Shown here piece by piece: positions 17,944 to 49,793 of a DNA stretch of 64,000 bases (position 1 is its first letter; each line of letters starts with the position of its first letter). This DNA is from Eledone cirrhosa (lineage: Eukaryota), in contig OZ024750.1 of NCBI GenBank assembly GCA_964016885.1, positions 17,236,001-17,300,000 of the forward strand, in the 5' to 3' direction. The notes beneath the pieces are model-generated. The model was not told where the DNA came from. It saw only the letters and a list, made by a program, of their open reading frames with translations, and did not search any database. Position numbers and translations under genes: made by a program.

Positions 17944-18554
17944 TCTGTGTGTGTACTTTTACATTTGTGTTTGTATCTGTGTTTATCTTCCGTAAATTAG
18001 GGATTCGACAAAAAGGGACATCGATAAAGGTCGATAAAGTCTTGAGAAAATAAGTGCTGGGATCGATATAATGGACTAAATCAATGTAGTACCCTAGCAT
18101 GACCGCATTTTAATCATTGATCCAGTAAAAGAGTAGAGAAAGCTATAATTTGTTATGATTTGCTGCGTCATCAAAGTTTATATAAGTCCAGCGCCTGCAA
18201 TTGGTTTTTACACACTTCCTTACTTGAAACTATTCTTGCTGTATTGAATTGAAACTAATGTCGGCTAGGGAGTCCTCTGTGGGTTGGTCTTTGTTGAAGT
18301 CAATTAAAATGGCGACTATAAAGATATTCTCTTTATCTGAGAAGGACAATGGTGACTGTAGTTTGAGACAAACTGGCTTGTTGACGTTACGATTACCAAC
18401 TTCCTCCTGGGTTACGATTCAGCTATTGTTACAATGCATATTCATACACACAGACATACACCCACAGGTTTACATACATACGTATATACATATATACATG
18501 CATACACCCATACATACATACATACATACATACATACATACATACATACATACA

Positions 18555-18585
<31 letters not shown>

Positions 18586-18740
18586 TTCTATATATTTATT
18601 GGTATATGTATACGTGCATATATATATATCTATATATATATATATATACATACATATTAAATATATATTTACACATATACACCTACATTTATATCTGCGC
18701 GTACATAATATATATATACATACATAATATATATACATAC

Positions 18741-18799
<59 letters not shown>

Positions 18800-18897
18800 T
18801 GTGTCTATATGTGTATGTGTGTATGTATGTAAATGGGTGCGCGTGTGTGTGCGTGCATACGTGTTTGTGGATATATATATAGAAATAGTTACGTATC

Positions 18898-18950
<53 letters not shown>

Positions 18951-19633
18951 GTGTATGCATGCTTGCGTGTGTACGTATGTTTGAGTAGATGCGTATATGT
19001 GTGTGGTGTAATATATTTACAAACCCTGGCAGTATACATAGACTGAGGTAGACATATTGTAAGACAATGGAGAGATATGGTATATAGCTTATTGGAGGAT
19101 GGTGTGTTTGAGGATGGATTTAACTCCATTGTGTTGGTATTGTGGAAGAATTGTGAATCTATTGTAATTCTATTGTGGATTTCAATCTTACATATCTCCC
19201 ATACAGGACAAAATATCAATCTTTTCAATTAGCAAATTGTTTTTAGAAATACATACGTATTCGTATAAGAGTTTATCTAAATATATATATATGTGTGTGT
19301 GTATGTGTGTGTGTGTGTGAGAGTGTGTGATTGCCTGTCTGTCTATCTATCTGTATGTATGTATGTATGTATGTATGTTTGTATGTATGTGTGTATGTGT
19401 GTGTATGTGTGTGTGTGTGAGAGAGTGTGTGATTGTATGTCTGTCTATCTATCTGTAAGTATGTATGTATGTATGTATGTATGTTTATGTGTATGTGTGT
19501 ATGTGTGTATGTATGCGAATATAGAAGTATACGTATTTGTCTTGATGTCAACAAGACAATTTGTATATATACATATATATATATATATTTATATATATAT
19601 ACATTTTTACGAATACACACACACATATATATG

Positions 19634-19667
<34 letters not shown>

Positions 19668-20514
19668 TACATTATCAGTTCTGTAAAGTGCTATAGAGAA
19701 CATACTGTTAATCCTACACACGTTATTCGTAGTAAAATAATTAATACACACATCATGTGGAGATGGGTGGGTGCATTATGATGTGGTGGGTGTTTAATGT
19801 ACTTTTATGACCCAGAGATTTACATCAGACAGAGAGTGTATATAACATATGTCTGGTTCGGTCAAATCCAAAAGATCAAAGATATAAGGTATAACAAAAA
19901 AACCTAGTTCAAGATTTCAAAGGGGCTAACAGAGATAACAATTACACAATGTTTTATTAGTTTCATGTTTGCGGCAAAAGGAAAATGAATTTATTAACGT
20001 ATCTGATATTAGTCCTTCGTCGGGAAAAACTAAAGTTAGGCGTCATTGAGGATGTTGGAAGGTTTGGAAAATAATAGACTTTAAGCTGAATACCTCCTGA
20101 GGTGTATTCAGTTATATATTGGGAATTGTCGTAGTCAGAAAACAGATTTCTATATGATGTCTAACTAAATATAAAAAAATTAAATTTTGTAAAAAAAATT
20201 AGCAACTTTTTTTTAATTCGCTCGATAAGATCCCAGTCCTGATTCGCTTGCCAAGTGGGGTGGAACTCTGACCACAGAGACAATCTTTCCATTGATCTTT
20301 CCATTGTTGATACTATCTACCGATCGAAATTTCATGGCAGAAAGAACAACGAGAAATAAAATGTCTTGCTCAAGGATATAACACATCGCCCGCCCGGTTC
20401 GAGCATCGAACTCGCAACCCCACGATTGCGAATCCAATTCTTTAACCACCAAGTCACGGGCGTTCACTTAGCAACTTTAATGACCTTTAAATATTTTACA
20501 AGTGATGATAATGA

Positions 20515-20718
20515 AGGCGGGACTGAAGCTATACTTGGCAGAATCAATAGAGCGTCAGACACCCTGCTTTACAGCATAGAGTTACGTCCTTTTACATTCT
20601 GAGTTCAAGTACCGCCAAGGTTTGGCTTTGCCTTTCATCCTTACGGGGTCGATAAAATAAAGTACCAGTAATGCATTGGTATAATTGCTGGCCTTGTAGC
20701 AAAAGTAGAAACAATTAT
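20515..20718 (+). mobile_element. tRNA-derived SINE
   Basis: TGGCAGAATCAATAG A box, GAGTTCAAGTACC B box, same core and tail. Confidence 0.85.
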
Positions 20719-21042
20719 CTCTATTAATATAGTACAGAAAAGACAAGTCAATGCCATTGACGAGGAAATCAGAAGACCAGCTATTAAAGATGATATTCTT
20801 TAATATTCCAAAATGTTCTCAAGTGCAATATGGGACTGCTTCACTGGCTGATTATAACAAACAAGTGGTCTATAGCTGGATTTGAAACCATAGCGTAAAA
20901 AGCTGGAACTTGCACCACAATGAATCACTGAATATTTTATTGATTAGTCAAGAAGGAAAGGGCCATGACCTTTCTCCTGTATATATGTATATGTGTATAA
21001 ATATATACATATTTATATATATATATAAATATATATATATGC

Positions 21043-21074
<32 letters not shown>

Positions 21075-21264
21075 GTGTGTGTGTGTGTGTGTCCACACGG
21101 AATACTGCCTCAAACACACCCAAAATAAATTTGATATTCTGACTACAGTTAATTTTTTGTTTATTGACAGACAACTTGGAATATCAATGGTATATATAAA
21201 TATAATATAATATAATTTATATATATATAATTATTATTATATATATATATACATATATATATAT

Positions 21265-21295
<31 letters not shown>

Positions 21296-21347
21296 TACAT
21301 GTATATATATATATATATTACATGTATATATATATATATATATATAT

Positions 21348-21428
<81 letters not shown>

Positions 21429-22283
21429 TTATATATATATATAATATATAAATATATGTATGTATATATATATATAACATGTATATGTATGTGTATATAT
21501 ATATCACATGACATTTTCCTATATTACAGTATATATTGTTTATTATATCATATACAACAATATTATAAATATATGTCTATATATATGTGTATATACGTAT
21601 ATATACATGTGTATATATATATATGTGTGTCTGTGTCTGTGGAGAGAGAAAGAAAGAGGCAGAAACACAATATGTACATATTTATGTGTATGTGTACGTG
21701 TGTGTGTGTACTTGTGTGTCTATATGTGTATGTGAGTATGTGTGTGTGATATTTTGCTTTCAGCGCCAATTAGTCGTAACACTCTCTTAGAATCATATAT
21801 CAACATTTTGTTATTATTAAAATAATGTCCTCTCCAAATATGACACCCACCCAACACAGCATTTTCTCGCCTGTGCCATTACGTTTAAACCTTCAAATAT
21901 TTCTCTAGCCACCTCCTCATCATCTTTATCATCACTAACACCTTCACCACTGTCAACATCATCATCATCATCATCATCATAATCATCGTCAGAAGCTGCA
22001 TCAGCACCAATACGACCAAGGCCGCCGCCGCCACCAACACTAACACCATCACCACCACCACCATCACCACCAACATCATCACCTCCACAAACAACCACCA
22101 ACACCGCCATCACCACCACCACAAACAACAGCACCAACAACAGCACCACCACCACCACCTCCACCAACACCACCACCACCACCACCACTATTATCATTAC
22201 CACCAGTAACATTAAAAACATTATCATATTTATAGTCGTCTTCGTTGTTTTCGTCAACAATTGCCGACGCCATGTTTTTGTTA

Positions 22284-22326
<43 letters not shown>

Positions 22327-23055
22327 TTTTCTATTCATTTATTTATACATTTCTGCATATATCACCTCCACCCACCACCAGCAATCTCCCAGGGACTAAA
22401 TCTCACGCAGTGTACATGCAAAATATATTACAATTTACATAGTTTTCAGTAAAGAGCAGGCAATGAAAATGGATGAATCAACAGTTGTAATTAGCGAGAA
22501 ATAAAAAATAAAAGGTTTTTATGTCGCACCTCCCTATACTGTTAGTTTTTCATTTTCACAATGACTTTTATCCTACTTCCGGTAATACTGTCTGAGAAAA
22601 CACACATACAGTCGCCATTGCGTCTGATTGCACAGTTGTAATAGGTTTACATCGGCCATCTTCCAAAACAACAGCAACAACAGAACAACAACAATAATGA
22701 TAATAATAATGATGATGATGATGATGATGATGATGATTATTATTATTATTAGTAATAGTAGTAGTAGTAGTAGTATATATATATATATATGAAACTATAT
22801 CAATACTCGAAATAAATTGTGATTCTCTTTAATTTAACATGCAACATAAACTTTCATTGCATTTTTGAAGGGGAAAATTCCATTCATAGCCACTTGTTGC
22901 CATTGTTGTTTAATGTTGCTGCTTTTTAAATTGTTGTTGCTGTAGTTGTTGGTAGCGGTGGGGTGATGGTGGTGGTGGTGGTGGTGGTGGTGGTGGTGGT
23001 GGTGGTGGTGGTGGTGGTGGTGGTGGTGGTGGTGGTGATGATGATGATGATGCTG

Positions 23056-23893
23056 CTCCGGCTCCCTGTTGGCGAGGAATCGAACAAGATACTTCATTCC
23101 AGAAGAAGCCGGTTCTTGGTTCTCCCCACAGAAACTTGCAGAAGGTTTACCAAAAAGGATCTTAAGAAGTAGCCCTACAGAATACAGGCTCAACAAGAGC
23201 TTTCCCTAGTTGATATGACCAAGAGAGAGGCTATGGTTGAGAAAATACTGGCGAAGATGGAAACCTACCCAAATTTTCTGAATTTGCTGTGGACCTCTGA
23301 GGAAGGCCACTTTCACTTAGAGGTTAAGATCAACTTCAAAAACAATGTTTCTTGGGTGTCAGATAAACCCACCGAAGGGGCTGTGAAACCTCTCCACTCG
23401 GCTAAATGTAACATCTGGGCAGCCAATTCTCAGAGAGACTTCATTGACCCATTCTTCTTCGAAAAAAATAATATCACTGCTATAGTCACAAAGGAACGCT
23501 ATTTTGAGGTCTTACAGCCCATGTACCCATCTCGACAGAATCAGTTCTAGTTCCAGAAAGGCGGAGCAAGCCCTCACACATCCAATGAGTCGCGAGAATG
23601 GCTGAAAAATAACTTTGGAGAACATGTGATCAGTTTGAAGATCGAGTTTAGGTTGGCCCCGAAAAGCCCTGATTTAAGCCCACCCACCCCATTCTCCGAT
23701 TTCCTCCTTGGGGCTGTCTGAGGGATAAAGTATATGTCAATAAAACCAGGACCATCCCTAAACTAAAAGAAAACATCAGGTAAGAGATCAGAGCCAGTCC
23801 TAGACCTGTTTGTGGAGACATCATGGTAAACTTCACCATCCCCTCAGAAAATGCATGGATTCAAATGGGGATCACCTGGAACATGTGCTGTAA
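23056..23893 (+). pseudogene. Tc1/mariner transposase pseudogene, DD41D (rosa/VS)-like
   Basis: PYRIQAQQEL, LWTSEEGHFHL, PLHSAKCNIW, PFFFE, FQKGGASPHT, APKSPDLSPP, WGCLRDKVY, NGDHLEHVL*; stops and frameshifts; catalytic spacing fits ~41. Confidence 0.88.
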
Positions 23894-24071
23894 CTCTGGA
23901 CAGAAATATCAGAGGATATTAAACTTTTTATATGTTGTGTTTAATGGCTTCAGCTAAGTACATTCGGGGTTTCATCAGTTTTCATCAGTTTCAAAGAACG
24001 AATAATCTAGATAAAAATATAATGGAGCCTGTTTTGTTTGAGTGACTCGGTATTTATCTATCTATTTATTC

Positions 24072-24129
<58 letters not shown>

Positions 24130-24187
24130 ATATATATATATATATATACACACACACTTACACACATATAAATACATACATATAAAA

Positions 24188-24305
<118 letters not shown>

Positions 24306-24723
24306 ATGTATGTGTGTATGTATGTATGTATGTATGTATGTATGTATGTATGTATGTATGTATGTATGTATGTATGTATGTATAGCTGAAGAAAATAGTA
24401 GCCTAGATCATGCAGAATTTACGAATATCTAACAAAGATCTACATGTGTTAAGGTTTCTCTCTCCACGAGCTAGAGAGCTAGAAATGTTCATGGAAGAAC
24501 CTACTTGAAATAAGAAGTCCCACTCGAGTGTTGGAGTAAATCTCTTGTTGAGCACACCTCGAACAGAAATAGGTGAGAGTGAAGAAAAATCAAACGAATG
24601 AGAAACCAAATAAAATAGATTAAGGTGAGAATGCATCAGGCACTAGAATGGTCCTCCGTTGGTTTCGACGATGATCATTCCAGTTGTTCCATCAACGGAA
24701 CATCTTACGCATGAAATTAATAT

Positions 24724-24942
24724 GGTTTCTTATATAGGCACAAGGCCAGCAATTTGGGAGGAGGGGGAAAGTCGATTAAATCAATCTACCCCAGTGCGTG
24801 ACTGGTACTTTATTTTACCGACCCCGTAAGGATGAAAGGCAAAGTTTAACATCGGCGGAATTTGAACTCAGATGATAAAGGGCCGTAACTCTATGCTGCA
24901 AAGCATGGTGTCCGACCCTCTACCGATACTGCCAATCCACCA
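24724..24942 (-). mobile_element. tRNA-derived SINE
   Basis: Same family as 34193-34376, reverse strand. Confidence 0.85.
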
Positions 24943-25329
24943 AGTTGCAAGTATCTGAGTTCGCCACAGACACACCATATATACCGTTAACGAAATTCTC
25001 AGGGAGATTCAGCGTAATGAAGTATATGAAAAGAATGCACCTCACATATTCAGTGAGTCATGCAACAATATTTCTGTTTCCCATTCTCCAGTCGTTGAAG
25101 TCACCAACATTTTGTATATAGTGCATCACTCTTTTTCATACTTAGCTTTCAGCAAACACTGTTTTGCTACAAAAGATTTTCCGTCATATTCGTAATACAT
25201 ACATACATACATACATATATACACTGTTTTTCTCCCTCTTCTCTTCATTTCATCCTGCACTCACGGACGCTATTTTTTCTCTCTCTGCTCAATGGCCTTC
25301 GTTCGTGCTGGCACTATTCTCTAAGCGCT

Positions 25330-25592
25330 CATATATTCACCTAGCTTACGCTAACAGAATAATTTTTGAAGCTTGTTTCTCTCCCACGGTATGCTATATT
25401 TTCTGTTGTTCTCCTGTCTCACTCGCTTTACGCGTTTTAATTGTCCTAATAACTTATTTTGGTTATTATTGCACCGAAGTGAGATATATGATTTTTAATG
25501 CAATGAAATATCTATGATCTTCGGCAAATCACTGATGAGGGACGTATTTTATTACATGTTACCATGTGCTACCTGCAGTATTTTTCTCTATA

Positions 25593-25658
<66 letters not shown>

Positions 25659-25949
25659 TGTATCTTGATTGCTCATGAAATCCACCCAGCTTATGCTGAC
25701 CGGATAACCATGTTGCTTGTTTATTCCCATCTTTGCGTTGCTTTCTTCCTTCTATGTTGTTTACTTGTCTCACTCGCTTTACGCGATTTACTTGTCCCAA
25801 TAGCTTTTTTTAGTTATTGCTCGCACCAACCTGAGGTATATGATTTTTAATGCGATGAAATATCAATGATGGTTGGCAAATCACTGACGAAGGACTAATT
25901 TCATCATATGTAACCCATGTGCAACCACGCAGTATTCTTCTTTCTTCTC

Positions 25950-25950
<1 letters not shown>
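25330..25950 (+). repeat. Family C dispersed repeat, two diverged tandem copies (also 50830-51012 +, 53795-54020 -)
   Basis: GTCTCACTCGCTTTACGCG...GCGATGAAATATC...CAAATCACTGAYGARGGAC...CATGTGCAACCACGCAGTATT. Confidence 0.75.
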
Positions 25951-26035
<85 letters not shown>

Positions 26036-26219
26036 CTTACTTACTGTGGTTTCCCCCGATTGAACCCGGGATACACACACACACACACACATACACACAC
26101 ATACACACATATATATAACGAAGGAGGTATGGTAAAGAACCAGATGGACCATACCGCACCAGTGTACGAAATAGCCGTCGAAACGGCTTGAGCTCTGCCG
26201 TCGGGGTTAAACATTTTCC

Positions 26220-26251
<32 letters not shown>

Positions 26252-26311
26252 TTATATATATATTTATTTATATATAAACATATATATATGTATGTATGTG
26301 TGTGTGTATAC

Positions 26312-26342
<31 letters not shown>

Positions 26343-26804
26343 ATATATTTAGAAACACACAGATACATGCGGACACACACATATATACATGAATGCATCC
26401 GCACCCAACTGTGAGTTAAGGGTGCCAACTTCACCGATGTTGCTCAATGAATGACTGGGACAGACCAATTCAGTTGAACTAGACTGAACCATGTATATAT
26501 GTGTGTGTCCGCATGTATCTGTGTGTTTCTAAATATATTGTTAATAACTCCCTCTGGTCGAGCAATCTTTGAAGTCTGGGGACAGCTGGAAAGCTTCCAT
26601 TACTCATACTTCTCGCCTTCTTCACCACCTCTTCTGCGGCCTCGATATAAATACCCCCTCCGCCTCCGTGGTATTTTCTTCGGGGTTATAAGAGGCTTAG
26701 CTCTGTTTCTCGACCGTTATATCGCGTGACTGTCTCCCCCTCCGCCTTTTGGGATTCTTTCTCACGTCGTGTAGACGCGTTCTTGAGACTAGTAAAATGA
26801 GGTA

Positions 26805-26894
26805 TCCTCTTGATAAGTCGGCAGACCTCGCAAGGACTCTATATCTTTATGATATATTGTTTTTGTTTATGCCACGAAACTACGTAGTCGAGGA
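26805..26894 (+). ncRNA. Type I hammerhead ribozyme, U3-A8 core variant
   Basis: TCCTC-TTGATAA-[long stem II GTCGGCA...TGCCAC]-GAAAC-TACGTA-GTC-GAGGA. Confidence 0.8.
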
Positions 26895-27399
26895 ATTTAG
26901 GAGCAGTTTAGGTATGATACATTTTATTACTAATTATATCTAAATGTTTCTTCTCTCTTCATAATGTATTTTTAACTCTGATACTGGTTCAGTCTAGTTC
27001 AACTGAATTGGTCTGTCCCAGTCATTCATTGAGCAACATCGGTGAAGTTGGCACCCTTAACTCACAGTTGGGTGCGGATGCATTCATGTATATATGCGTG
27101 TGTCCGCATGTATCTGTGTGTTTCTAAATATATTGTTAATAACTCCCTCTGGTCGAGCAATCTTTGAAGTCTGGGGACAGCTGGAAAGCTTCCATTACTC
27201 ATACTTCTCGCCTTCTTCACCACCTCTTCTGCGGCCTCGATATAAATACCCCCTCCGCCTCCGTGGTATTTTCTTCGGGGTTATAAGAGGCTTAGCTCTG
27301 TTTCTCGACCGTTATATCGCGTGACTGTCTCCCCCTCCGCCTTTTGGGATTCTTTCTCACGTCGTGTAGACGCGTTCTTGAGACTAGTAAAATGAGGTA

Positions 27400-27489
27400 T
27401 CCTCTTGATAAGTCGGCAGACCTCGCAAGGACTCTATATCTTTATGATATATTGTTTTTGTTTATGCCACGAAACTACGTAGTCGAGGA
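27400..27489 (+). ncRNA. Type I hammerhead ribozyme, U3-A8 variant (second copy)
   Basis: Identical to 26805-26894. Confidence 0.8.
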
Positions 27490-27945
27490 ATTTAGGAGCA
27501 GTTTAGGTATGATACATTTTATTACTAATTATATCTAAATGTTTCTTCTCTCTTCATAATGTATATTTATATATATATATATGTATGTGGGTGTGTGTGT
27601 GTGTGCACGTGCGTGTGTGTGTATGTGTGAGCATGTGATGAGGGACAGCTACCTTCAGCACAATATATTTAACTGGCACGTGTTAACGGCGGTGGCTATG
27701 TAGAGCGCCGAATCCCACTACAACCCCATCCATTAATTTAGTAATCTTGAAGAACGCAGAAGTAAGACAGTCTTATAAACGCCGCGGTATCGTATCTAAA
27801 ACAACAACAACAACAACAACAGTAATGTGAAGGAGTGAGCAGAAAATCGTGAAAGGTAGTATGAGACAGACACACACACACACACACACACACATACATA
27901 CACACACATATACACATACACAGAGACACACACGCATATGCACAG

Positions 27946-27985
<40 letters not shown>

Positions 27986-28231
27986 CTCATTTAATTTTTT
28001 TTTTCCTTCATTTTAATTTTTTTTCACCTTTATTTTAATGTCTTTCCACCTCTCCCCTCTCACGCTCTCTCGGAACACCTTTCTCCTGATGAAGGGTTTA
28101 TGCCCGAATCGCCCCCCCCCCCCCCCCCCCCACTTTCAAGCGCGCCCCCCCCCCCCCACACACACACTCACTGTTCGTAACTGCACTCTTTGTTGTTGTT
28201 TTTGATTTTTTTACTTTGCTATAATATATAT

Positions 28232-48707: not shown

Positions 48708-49412
48708 ATGTGTAAGTCAGCGGGTAAAGGGGGATAGTTTATTGATTTATAAGCAGACTTAGTGAACCAATGCTGCTGTTTGTTGTTGTTGTTGTTGTTG
48801 TTGTTAGTGGGGCGATGGTGGTGAAGTGAGGTCAGTTGGTGCAAGTTGAGCAAGGGGAATCAGAGCCGCTCTACGTAACGAATGAAATCTATTGTGACAT
48901 TAGGGAATAATATATAACGAACGACTGGTTGGTATGTTTGTATATATGTATGCATATATATGTATCTATATATTTACGTGTGTATGTGCGTATGCCTCTA
49001 TATATATTTGTGTGTGTGTGTGTGTGTGTGTGTATGCATATATGTAGGTATGCAAAATGTAGAAGGATACATCAAAGCGTACAATACACTATAATGAAGA
49101 AATATATTAGTTTAACACTTCATATAGTAGAAAAGGAGTCTTAGCGTTTCGGATATTAGTGCTTCATCAGAAGATAGTATGAGAAATAGAAGAAAAATAG
49201 AAAAATAGAGTGTGAGAAAAGAAGTAACGAAAAACAAATTTTGGAGCAAAATACGTTTGTATTCAACCAACCATAAATTTATATCTGTATGGCTATCTTT
49301 TTATATATATCTATATATATATATATATAAAGGAAAAAAGTCAGGACCCCGACTAAGTATCGAGTTCTCTGATGCTTTATGGTCCACCTGGTTCCTTACC
49401 ACACTTCCTTCG

Positions 49413-49453
<41 letters not shown>

Positions 49454-49457
<4 letters not shown>

Positions 49458-49793
49458 AACAAGTAAGACCCCGACGGCTGAGCTCAAGCCGTTTAGACGG
49501 CTTGAGCTCAGCCGTCGGGGTCTTACTTGTTCCTATTACCCACTCTACTACCCTAAGTATTGAGTACTTTGGTGCGTTATGGTCCACCTGGTTCCTTACC
49601 ACATTTCCTTCGTTATCTAGCTCCTATCCCCGTAGTAGAGCACTTTCCGACCCTACCAGAATTAGCCGTCGAAACGGCTTGAGCTCAGCCATAGGGGTCT
49701 TACTTGTTCCTATTACCCACTCTACTACCCTAAGTATTGAGTACTTTGGTGCGTTATGGTCCACCTGGTTCCTTACCACATTTCCTTCGTTAT
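49454..49793 (+). mobile_element. Family B: inverted arm plus two tandem ~177-bp units
   Basis: TTGAGCTCAGCC at 49502 and 49679; inverted arm 49454-49493. Confidence 0.8.

What the first reader, a model, noticed from the sequence alone, without database searches (positions are those of the whole stretch)
26342..27564. 595-bp element with a compensated U3-A8 hammerhead core and ~60-nt stem II
Seen: the core reads TTGATAA instead of CTGATGA, both changes at positions 3 and 8; perfect TCCTC/GAGGA stem I; 10-nt palindrome ACTACGTAGT; GUC site; stem II with GGCA/TGCC, GCAAGGAC/GTTTTTGT and TATATC/GATATA. Established: 3 and 8 form a tertiary Watson-Crick pair, and U3-A8 is a rare tolerated swap. 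The double change implies selection for catalysis, and standard CUGANGA searches would miss it. The inverted arm joins at a CA microhomology (26490-26491).
Basis: partly seen in the sequence, partly recalled or inferred. Interest (0 to 1): 0.75.

Follow-up and report, generated by a model that had tools for sequence, protein, structure and literature searches.

The report
Retrozyme with U3-A8 hammerhead, Penelope-type ends
This is one of thousands of recent copies of a small protein-free repeat that carries a predicted self-cutting RNA motif with an already published core variant, and its insertion ends match those of a young Penelope-type jumping gene in the same genome, which likely supplies the copying enzyme.

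Summary
In detail: 595-bp tandem unit, type I hammerhead with U3-A8 core, 59-nt stem II, palindromic stem III, 150-bp inverted arm joined at CA. It is one insertion of a young non-coding family: 6,077 core matches in the genome, 6 with C3, 14 without A8, none C3-G8. U3-A8 is therefore inherited, and it is published for Penelope-like elements (PMC4209133). Selection shows elsewhere: an 82-84% identical older subfamily keeps the core and changes stem I C-G, U-G, U-A. Insertions sit in (TA)n and end at two fixed sites, 80 and 245 nt after the cut; two-armed copies use one of each (36 of 39; 13 of 13 classed older ones) and both arms share one template. A young autonomous Neptune-type element also has U3-A8 (35 of 35), a first end about 79 nt after its cut and a similar second-end motif: a candidate helper, without shared sequence. 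Verdict: a non-LTR retrozyme, a new member of a known kind. Cleavage, expression and circles are untested. This scan already noted the same family on other DNA.

The parts
26342..26491 (-). Inverted arm: monomer positions 96-245 (counted from the cut site), outer end at fixed site B, abutting (TA)n
26490..26491 (.). CA microhomology joining the two arms
   Evidence: 23 of 39 arm junctions in other copies overlap, 5 are blunt, 11 have inserted letters (blast overlaps, so approximate)
26490..27564 (+). Direct arm, 1,075 nt = 1.8 monomers (196-595, 1-595, 1-80), outer end at fixed site A, abutting (TA)n
26646..26653 (+). TATAAATA motif (again at 27241-27248), kept in the older subfamily; possible promoter element, untested
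   Evidence: sequence, alignment
26805..26894 (+). Type I hammerhead motif, copy 1: U3-A8 core 26810-26816, stem II 26817-26875, palindromic stem III 26879-26888, predicted cut after 26889
26890..27484 (+). 595-nt monomer between the two predicted cut sites; longest ATG-started frame 76 codons; circular fold -178.8 kcal/mol, z -8.0 against 40 shuffles
26890..26960 (+). Hairpin A: predicted to capture the 3' strand of stem I (GAGGA) and to end about 10 nt before site A (again at 27485-27555)
   Evidence: (z -4.15)
27072..27111 (+). Hairpin B, ending about 20 nt before site B (27134); pairing kept by one-sided changes in the older subfamily
   Evidence: (z -3.1)
27400..27489 (+). Type I hammerhead motif, copy 2, identical to copy 1; predicted cut after 27484
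26220..26341 (.). (TA)n-rich target, left side; the right side continues as a TA-rich run from 27565

Best explanation
The element is one insertion of a young, protein-free repeat family of thousands of copies with a U3-A8 hammerhead motif in each 595-bp unit, likely a non-LTR retrozyme that is copied into (TA)n sites by the enzyme of a Neptune-type Penelope-like retrotransposon. Steps: (1, inferred) a tandem copy is transcribed; (2, predicted) two adjacent hammerheads pair through their 10-nt palindromes and cut after GUC, releasing a 595-nt unit, which would be ligated to a circle as shown for other animal retrozymes; (3, predicted by folding) in the finished unit hairpin A captures the 3' strand of stem I, so the ribozyme would be off; (4, shown as a footprint, enzyme inferred) both DNA ends of a nicked (TA)n target are extended on the same template, one from site A (80 nt after the cut) and one from site B (245 nt), each running for a fraction of a unit up to nearly five units; (5, shown) the two arms are joined by microhomology or a short insert. 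U3-A8 is an inherited lineage trait kept by purifying selection, not an event of this copy.
For: Family size and youth: 6,077 core matches; the best-matching copies average 99.5% pairwise identity. Ends: of 45 two-armed rows, 37 have one A and one B end, 3 A/A, 0 B/B, 5 unclassed; one row is a duplicate, so 36 of 39; single-armed 16 A and 5 B of 21. Older subfamily: of 18 two-armed rows 13 A/B, 5 with another end, none A/A or B/B. One template: arms of one insertion differ at 83 of 10,989 overlapping positions (0.76%) against 2.5% for shuffled pairs, 0 of 2,000 as low; 14 private variants are on both arms, 58 on one only (34 insertions). Selection: 95 majority differences between 16 older and 37 young monomers, 0 in the 35 nt of core, stem II base and stem III against 86 of 510 outside the motif (Fisher p 0.003); stem I pair C-G, U-G, U-A (5) of 18; 22 of 31 changed pairs of the predicted fold still pair, null 39%, 0 of 5,000. 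Dimer: inter-copy palindrome pairing 0.82-0.98, duplex -12.9 against +1.5 kcal/mol for the hairpin, as described for metazoan type I motifs (PMC4209133). Penelope signature (partial tandems, inverted 5' copy, tail at one end, two RT start sites, both strands extended): PMC8557442 passages, PMC11167929 parts 1-2. Candidate helper: RT plus GIY-YIG with a C-x5-CxxC linker, 150 of 150 scored matches 97-100% identical, U3-A8 in 35 of 35 motifs, ends mostly 78-80 and 142-145 nt after its cut, second end TTTCTAATATAT against TTTCTAAATATAT here, one-of-each ends in 6 two-armed loci and 3 of 3.
Against: No RNA evidence of any kind: transcription, cleavage and circles are untested. Li et al. found cleavage for only 1 of 9 predicted Xenopus retrozyme dimers in vitro (10.64898/2026.07.22.740005, part 3), and the Anolis element's hammerhead needed protein and was dispensable for insertion in vitro (PMC11167929). 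Core alone, 0 of 14 changes, is not significant (p 0.075); covariation on the hammerhead alignment does not beat the shuffle control (136 of 500 for two-sided pairs, 21 of 500 for the score), and the stem I series is one lineage event. The monomer shows no nucleotide or protein homology to the autonomous loci examined beyond short motifs and low-complexity matches (middle of the output was cut), only 150 of 10,597 GIY-YIG candidates were scored, and the tail lengths differ (165 against about 65 nt), so the helper is not identified. In the helper family one four-armed locus has three A ends and three loci could not be fully classed. Multi-unit arms can also come from a linear read-through transcript. 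Loci were not drawn at random (best matches, core variants, hand-picked stretches of one contig).
Confidence: 0.8

Rival explanations
1. Same element and Penelope-type enzyme, but the template is a linear multimeric read-through transcript of tandem donors; the hammerhead is kept for another job (end trimming, folding) or works rarely, and no circle is involved.
For: Hammerhead mutants did not change insertion by the Anolis protein in vitro, unprocessed RNA was the main substrate (PMC11167929 part 2). Equilibrium folding gives stem I a probability near 0 once the downstream 80 nt are present. No RNA holder to show a circle.
Against: Most donors hold only 1-3 units yet L070 has 4.8 plus 2.7 units with 5 private variants shared by both arms and no difference over 583 positions, easier to get by going round one unit; the motif is conserved more than the rest.
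Confidence: 0.3
2. The copies are 5'-truncated ends (pseudo-LTRs) of an autonomous Penelope-like element not yet found, rather than a separate non-autonomous family.
For: Ends and target are those of Penelope-like elements; most Penelope insertions are 5'-truncated (10.64898/2026.07.22.740005 part 3); the GIY-YIG search was not exhaustive.
Against: In the 70 loci mapped and the 27, the sequence upstream of a hammerhead is the previous monomer, an inverted arm or flank, not a coding frame; site B runs on into the next unit; no similarity to six Penelope proteins (best E 0.049).
Confidence: 0.07
3. A satellite or MITE-like DNA repeat spread by DNA mechanisms, in which a dead hammerhead mutated twice by chance.
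For: Tandem and inverted layout; long inverted arms look like terminal repeats.
Against: Two fixed outer ends with variable inner ends, dispersal over many contigs, (TA)n targeting, wobble-tolerant conservation of an RNA fold (G-U to A-U changes), an invariant core across 17% divergence, and U3-A8 in autonomous retroelements of the same genome.
Confidence: 0.03

Closest known systems
Metazoan non-LTR retrozymes (Cervera and de la Pena 2020, PMC7229834: passages and part 4 of 6 read; Li, Clavereau and Pollet 2026, 10.64898/2026.07.22.740005: parts 1-3 of 5 read)
   Same: Non-coding tandem units with one type I hammerhead each, dispersed as monomers to multimers, GC 42%, length within the 51-972 bp range reported, co-occurring with Penelope-like elements.
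   Different: U3-A8 core and 59-nt stem II; the ribozyme is predicted to be self-blocked in the circle, whereas that paper predicts most metazoan retrozyme circles leave it free; insertion ends are mapped here (not covered in the parts I read); expression and cleavage not shown here.
U3-A8 hammerheads: Schistosoma mansoni Cercyon Penelope-like elements (PMC4209133, parts 1-2 of 4 read); natural covariants in Perreault et al. 2011 (PMC3088659, passages and section 8 read)
   Same: Same 3-8 swap, in the same class of retroelement; palindromic stem III suited to dimers.
   Different: Those are minimal, heterogeneous, mostly single motifs; this one has a 3-bp stem III in a 10-nt palindrome, a long stem II, and is near-identical in thousands of tandem copies.
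EN+ Penelope-like elements, Neptune type (PMC8557442, passages read) and Poseidon of Anolis (PMC11167929, parts 1-2 of 4 read)
   Same: Partial tandems, inverted 5' copy, a tail at one end only, two internal RT start sites, AT-rich target, hammerhead just upstream of the ends.
   Different: No coding frame; tail of 165 nt instead of 30-40 nt; a strict one-of-each use of the two sites in two-armed copies, whereas in vitro the Anolis protein showed no difference in start site between strands.

Membership tests
Type I hammerhead ribozyme | Core N3-UGAN-N8-A, GAAA, NUH with a Watson-Crick 3-8 pair and three stems | tested here: met
   U3-A8, G10.1-C11.1, A15.1-U16.1, GUC; 94.8% of cells paired against 33-56% for slid controls
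Type I hammerhead ribozyme | Canonical CUGANGA core / Rfam hammerhead family match | tested here: not met
   Variant core; no Rfam hammerhead match. The variant is published as a natural covariation (PMC3088659, PMC4209133)
Type I hammerhead ribozyme | Self-cleavage after N17 | not testable with these tools
   Needs an in vitro assay
Type I hammerhead ribozyme | Tertiary contact between loop/stem I and loop II | not tested
   Loop I is the whole monomer; no contact was modelled
Non-LTR retrozyme | Tandem non-coding units with a type I hammerhead in each, at least two consecutive | tested here: met
   Two units in the window, up to 4.8 per arm elsewhere; longest ATG frame 76 codons
Non-LTR retrozyme | Dispersed, mobile family | tested here: met
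   6,077 cores; copies on many contigs; two subfamilies of different age
Non-LTR retrozyme | Expressed as monomeric linear and circular RNA | not testable with these tools
   No run on record as RNA was offered
Penelope-like element, autonomous | RT plus GIY-YIG reading frame | tested here: not met
   No such frame in the monomer or in window 18000-36000 ORFs of 100 aa or more near the element; tblastn of six Penelope proteins against the monomer best E 0.049
Penelope-mobilised element | Partial tandems, inverted 5' copy, tail at one end, microsatellite target | tested here: met
Penelope-mobilised element | Sequence homology to the pseudo-LTR of a named autonomous family | tested here: inconclusive
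   Only short shared motifs and matched spacing; 50 loci from 150 scored of 10,597 candidates were compared

The most novel reading that the evidence does not exclude
A complete, testable parasite-helper pair: a Neptune-type protein (U3-A8 lineage, two frames joined at a slippery site) grips one 595-nt RNA circle at two hairpin-marked sites and reverse-transcribes round it from both ends of a (TA)n break, while the circle keeps its U3-A8 ribozyme switched off by the same hairpin that marks the first start site. The hammerhead-to-start-site spacing of about 80 nt would be the recognition rule shared by helper and parasite.
Probability: 0.3. Interest if true: 0.7.

Novelty: new member of a known kind. 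Interest (0 to 1): 0.36.

Why it matters
The core variant itself is published, so the headline claim is ordinary. What remains useful: (1) U3-A8 motifs number at least 8,400 in this genome from two patterns alone (6,077 plus 2,334), so retrozyme and Penelope surveys built on CUGANGA or Rfam undercount; (2) how animal retrozymes are inserted is still proposed rather than shown in the papers I read, and this family gives fixed start sites, a one-template footprint and a young candidate enzyme, which together define a direct in vitro test of rolling-circle reverse transcription by a Penelope-type protein.

Tried and rejected
Rfam: no hammerhead match; the miRNA-type matches are below their gathering scores and follow hairpins and TA repeats; the Plastid-psbJ-2 match at 49392-49530 lies on a TA run and a palindromic repeat and was set aside. 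Search for a C3-G8 relative of this family: 0 matches, 1 unrelated match; shorter-stem II relatives: 11 matches against 2 for the control, by their letters mostly deleted or re-read family copies (loci not examined further). Expression: no RNA holder listed; this is no evidence either way. Contigs of four runs were laid once: they hold the unit, the tandem joint and variants like the older subfamily, with no listed difference at core positions 3 or 8 (4 rows were not shown); contigs cannot show ends or level. A second laying, on the older subfamily, gave no result, so the other labelled organisms were not compared with it. Homology of the monomer to autonomous pseudo-LTRs or proteins: none beyond short motifs. 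The tree of GIY-YIG fragments is a quick tree with 39 of 50 inner branches open; it separates families but cannot order the gain of U3-A8, and two C3-G8 motifs near L107/L108 belong to other insertions, so I did not use them. Count of T-run lengths returned nothing (pattern error). Przybilski and Hammann's paper on 3-8 exchanges is not held; I recall it but cite nothing from it. Paper searches: (hammerhead with octopus, or retrozyme with cephalopod) each listed only PMC8557442; PMC13282606 has no occurrence of 'ribozyme' in its main text. No supplements were read; those of PMC7229834, PMC4209133 and the preprint may list such motifs.

Full report
Observation. The direct arm runs 26490-27564 with period 595 and one mismatch between the repeated parts; the inverted arm 26342-26491 mirrors 26985-27134 and overlaps the direct arm by CA. 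Each unit holds a type I hammerhead motif: stem I TCCTC/GAGGA, core TTGATAA (U3, A8), a 59-nt stem II (z -4.1 against 200 shuffles), GAAA, the palindrome ACTACGTAGT and GUC with C at 26889. Rfam does not report it. Both ends abut (TA)n.

Family. The window lies in a 3.0-Gb genome; earlier scan notes call it a cephalopod, which I did not test. The 20-nt pattern with positions 3, 7 and 8 free matches 6,077 times, control 0; 99 of the 100 listed read TTGATAA. By my hand count those 100 fall in about 56 places, which would mean roughly 3,400 insertions; the pattern misses older copies with a TCCCC stem I. C at position 3 occurs 6 times, always with A8; a letter other than A at 8 occurs 14 times, always with U3. 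No C3-G8 relative was found. So U3-A8 is the inherited state and single changes look like mutation after insertion. Monomers between cut sites are mostly 595 (30) or 591 (13) nt among 69 loci. Best-matching copies average 99.5% pairwise identity; an older subfamily is 82-84% identical to the window copy and 94% within itself.

Is the motif under selection? Subfamily comparison does support selection. Majority letters of 16 older and 37 young monomers differ at 95 of 595 positions, at none of the 35 nt covering core, stem II base and stem III, against 86 of 510 outside the motif (Fisher p 0.003); the 14 core nt alone are not significant (p 0.075). One stem I pair reads C-G, U-G or U-A (8, 5, 5 of 18 distinct sequences), always paired; but two-sided changes do not exceed the shuffle control (136 of 500), and two distal stem II pairs are often open. 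Across the whole unit, 22 of 31 confidently predicted pairs touched by a subfamily change still pair, against 39% for the same changes placed at random (0 of 5,000; the structure came from the young copy). The circular unit folds at z -8.0 against 40 shuffles. Across families the 3-8 pair does covary: U3-A8 in two autonomous Penelope-like families (98 of the first 100 of 2,334 matches, with position 7 varying freely; 35 of 35) and C3-G8 downstream of two others (L104, L111) and in a 492-bp array of this window.

Predicted behaviour of the RNA. The 3-bp stem III hairpin is unstable (+1.5 kcal/mol) whereas two palindromes pair at -12.9, with probability 0.82-0.98 in the tandem transcript: dimeric cleavage, as described for metazoan type I motifs (PMC4209133). 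Once the next 80 nt exist, and in the circle, GAGGA pairs with a downstream pyrimidine tract (probability 0.92-0.96) and stem I falls to about 0; one of three older copies folded keeps all five of these pairs, the others four and three. This suggests cutting during transcription or with protein help, and a silent ribozyme in the finished unit. These are equilibrium predictions only.

Insertion footprint. Outer ends fall at monomer position about 80 (site A) or about 245 (site B), each shortly after a long hairpin. Of 45 two-armed rows 37 are A/B, 3 A/A, none B/B, 5 unclassed; L064 is counted twice, giving 36 of 39; five loci were dropped beforehand as the same insertion as another. Independent choice could give at most half. 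The older subfamily gives 13 A/B and 5 with a truncated other end among 18 (2 of 29 loci dropped as duplicates). Arms of one insertion differ at 0.76% against 2.5% for shuffled pairs, and share 14 private variants, while 58 are on one arm only (34 of 38 two-armed loci had 60 nt or more of overlap; six divergent or duplicated loci were left out). This is the Penelope layout of partial tandems, an inverted 5' copy and a tail at one end (PMC8557442), and the tail has been shown to be the interval between two RT start sites, with both DNA strands extended (PMC11167929). Here the tail is 165 nt. Loci were not sampled at random.

Candidate helper. [quoted passage not shown] It is young (150 of 150 scored matches 97-100% identical, many with a 775-codon frame), inserts in (TA)n, carries a minimal U3-A8 hammerhead, ends mostly 78-80 or 142-145 nt after its cut, and uses one end of each kind in 6 two-armed loci of the 20 (one four-armed locus had three A ends; three could not be fully classed) and 3 of 3. 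Its second end reads TTTCTAATATAT, ours TTTCTAAATATAT; both first ends follow a pyrimidine tract. No longer homology exists, and most Penelope families were not examined, so this is a candidate only.

Comparison with what is known. It works like, and meets the testable genomic criteria of, a metazoan non-LTR retrozyme (PMC7229834; 10.64898/2026.07.22.740005); expression and cleavage could not be tested. U3-A8 is published as a natural covariation (PMC3088659) and for about 1,300 Schistosoma Penelope motifs (PMC4209133). It is not an autonomous Penelope element. After I had reached this reading I looked up the scan's notes: the same 591/595-bp family and the two-armed pattern were noted before on other DNA (for example e1-8673856, e1-8667491); these are unchecked AI notes and not independent support.

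Verdict. Observation confirmed; interpretation partly supported; new member of a known kind; interest 0.36. The value lies in the testable parasite-helper model, not in the core swap.

Noticed in passing
window 7175-11515: A second two-armed array in (TA)n: 492-bp units, 3.5 copies on the minus and 5.3 on the plus strand, 100% identical, each with a canonical C3-G8 core (CTGATGA...GAAACTAGTA); another retrozyme-like family.
   Followed up: partly
L173, L176, L178, L179, L185 (autonomous Neptune-type family); L101: Five of five copies with the upstream region show two overlapping frames (409-410 and 775 codons) meeting at T TTT TTA, a -1 slippery-type heptamer (motif recalled); L101 has one more T and a fused frame. 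PMC8557442 Fig. 1 legend notes that ORF1 can be separated by a frameshift in some Penelope types.
   Followed up: partly
G000 genome-wide; L071-L119: A second autonomous family with TTGATAAtGCAT...GAAACCGGTA minimal hammerheads, 2,334 pattern matches, 98 of the first 100 U3-A8; two further U3-A8-like cores downstream of L117/L113 and L120.
   Followed up: partly
L101:300-700: Another short repeat with a U3-A8 core (TTGATAA gtac...gtac GAAA), ending in TTCTAATATAT before (TA)n, the same motif as site B.
   Followed up: no
window 26160-26210, 28240-28300, 49470-49530: A palindromic repeat (CCCCGACGGC.GAGCTC...) in several copies; it and a TA run explain the Rfam Plastid-psbJ-2 match at 49392-49530, which looks spurious.
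   Followed up: no
window 25532-25545, 25883-25895, 28086-28112: Decayed CTGANGA-type cores in neighbouring repeats, probably old Penelope ends.
   Followed up: no
window 1-3245: 35-bp satellite, about 92 copies, with strong strand skew.
   Followed up: no
L064: The same 1.3-kb two-armed insertion occurs twice 2,554 bp apart, a local duplication after insertion.
   Followed up: no
runs X4 and X6: Runs labelled with two other organism codes hold the unit and its tandem joint, so the family may be shared by related species or samples.
   Followed up: partly
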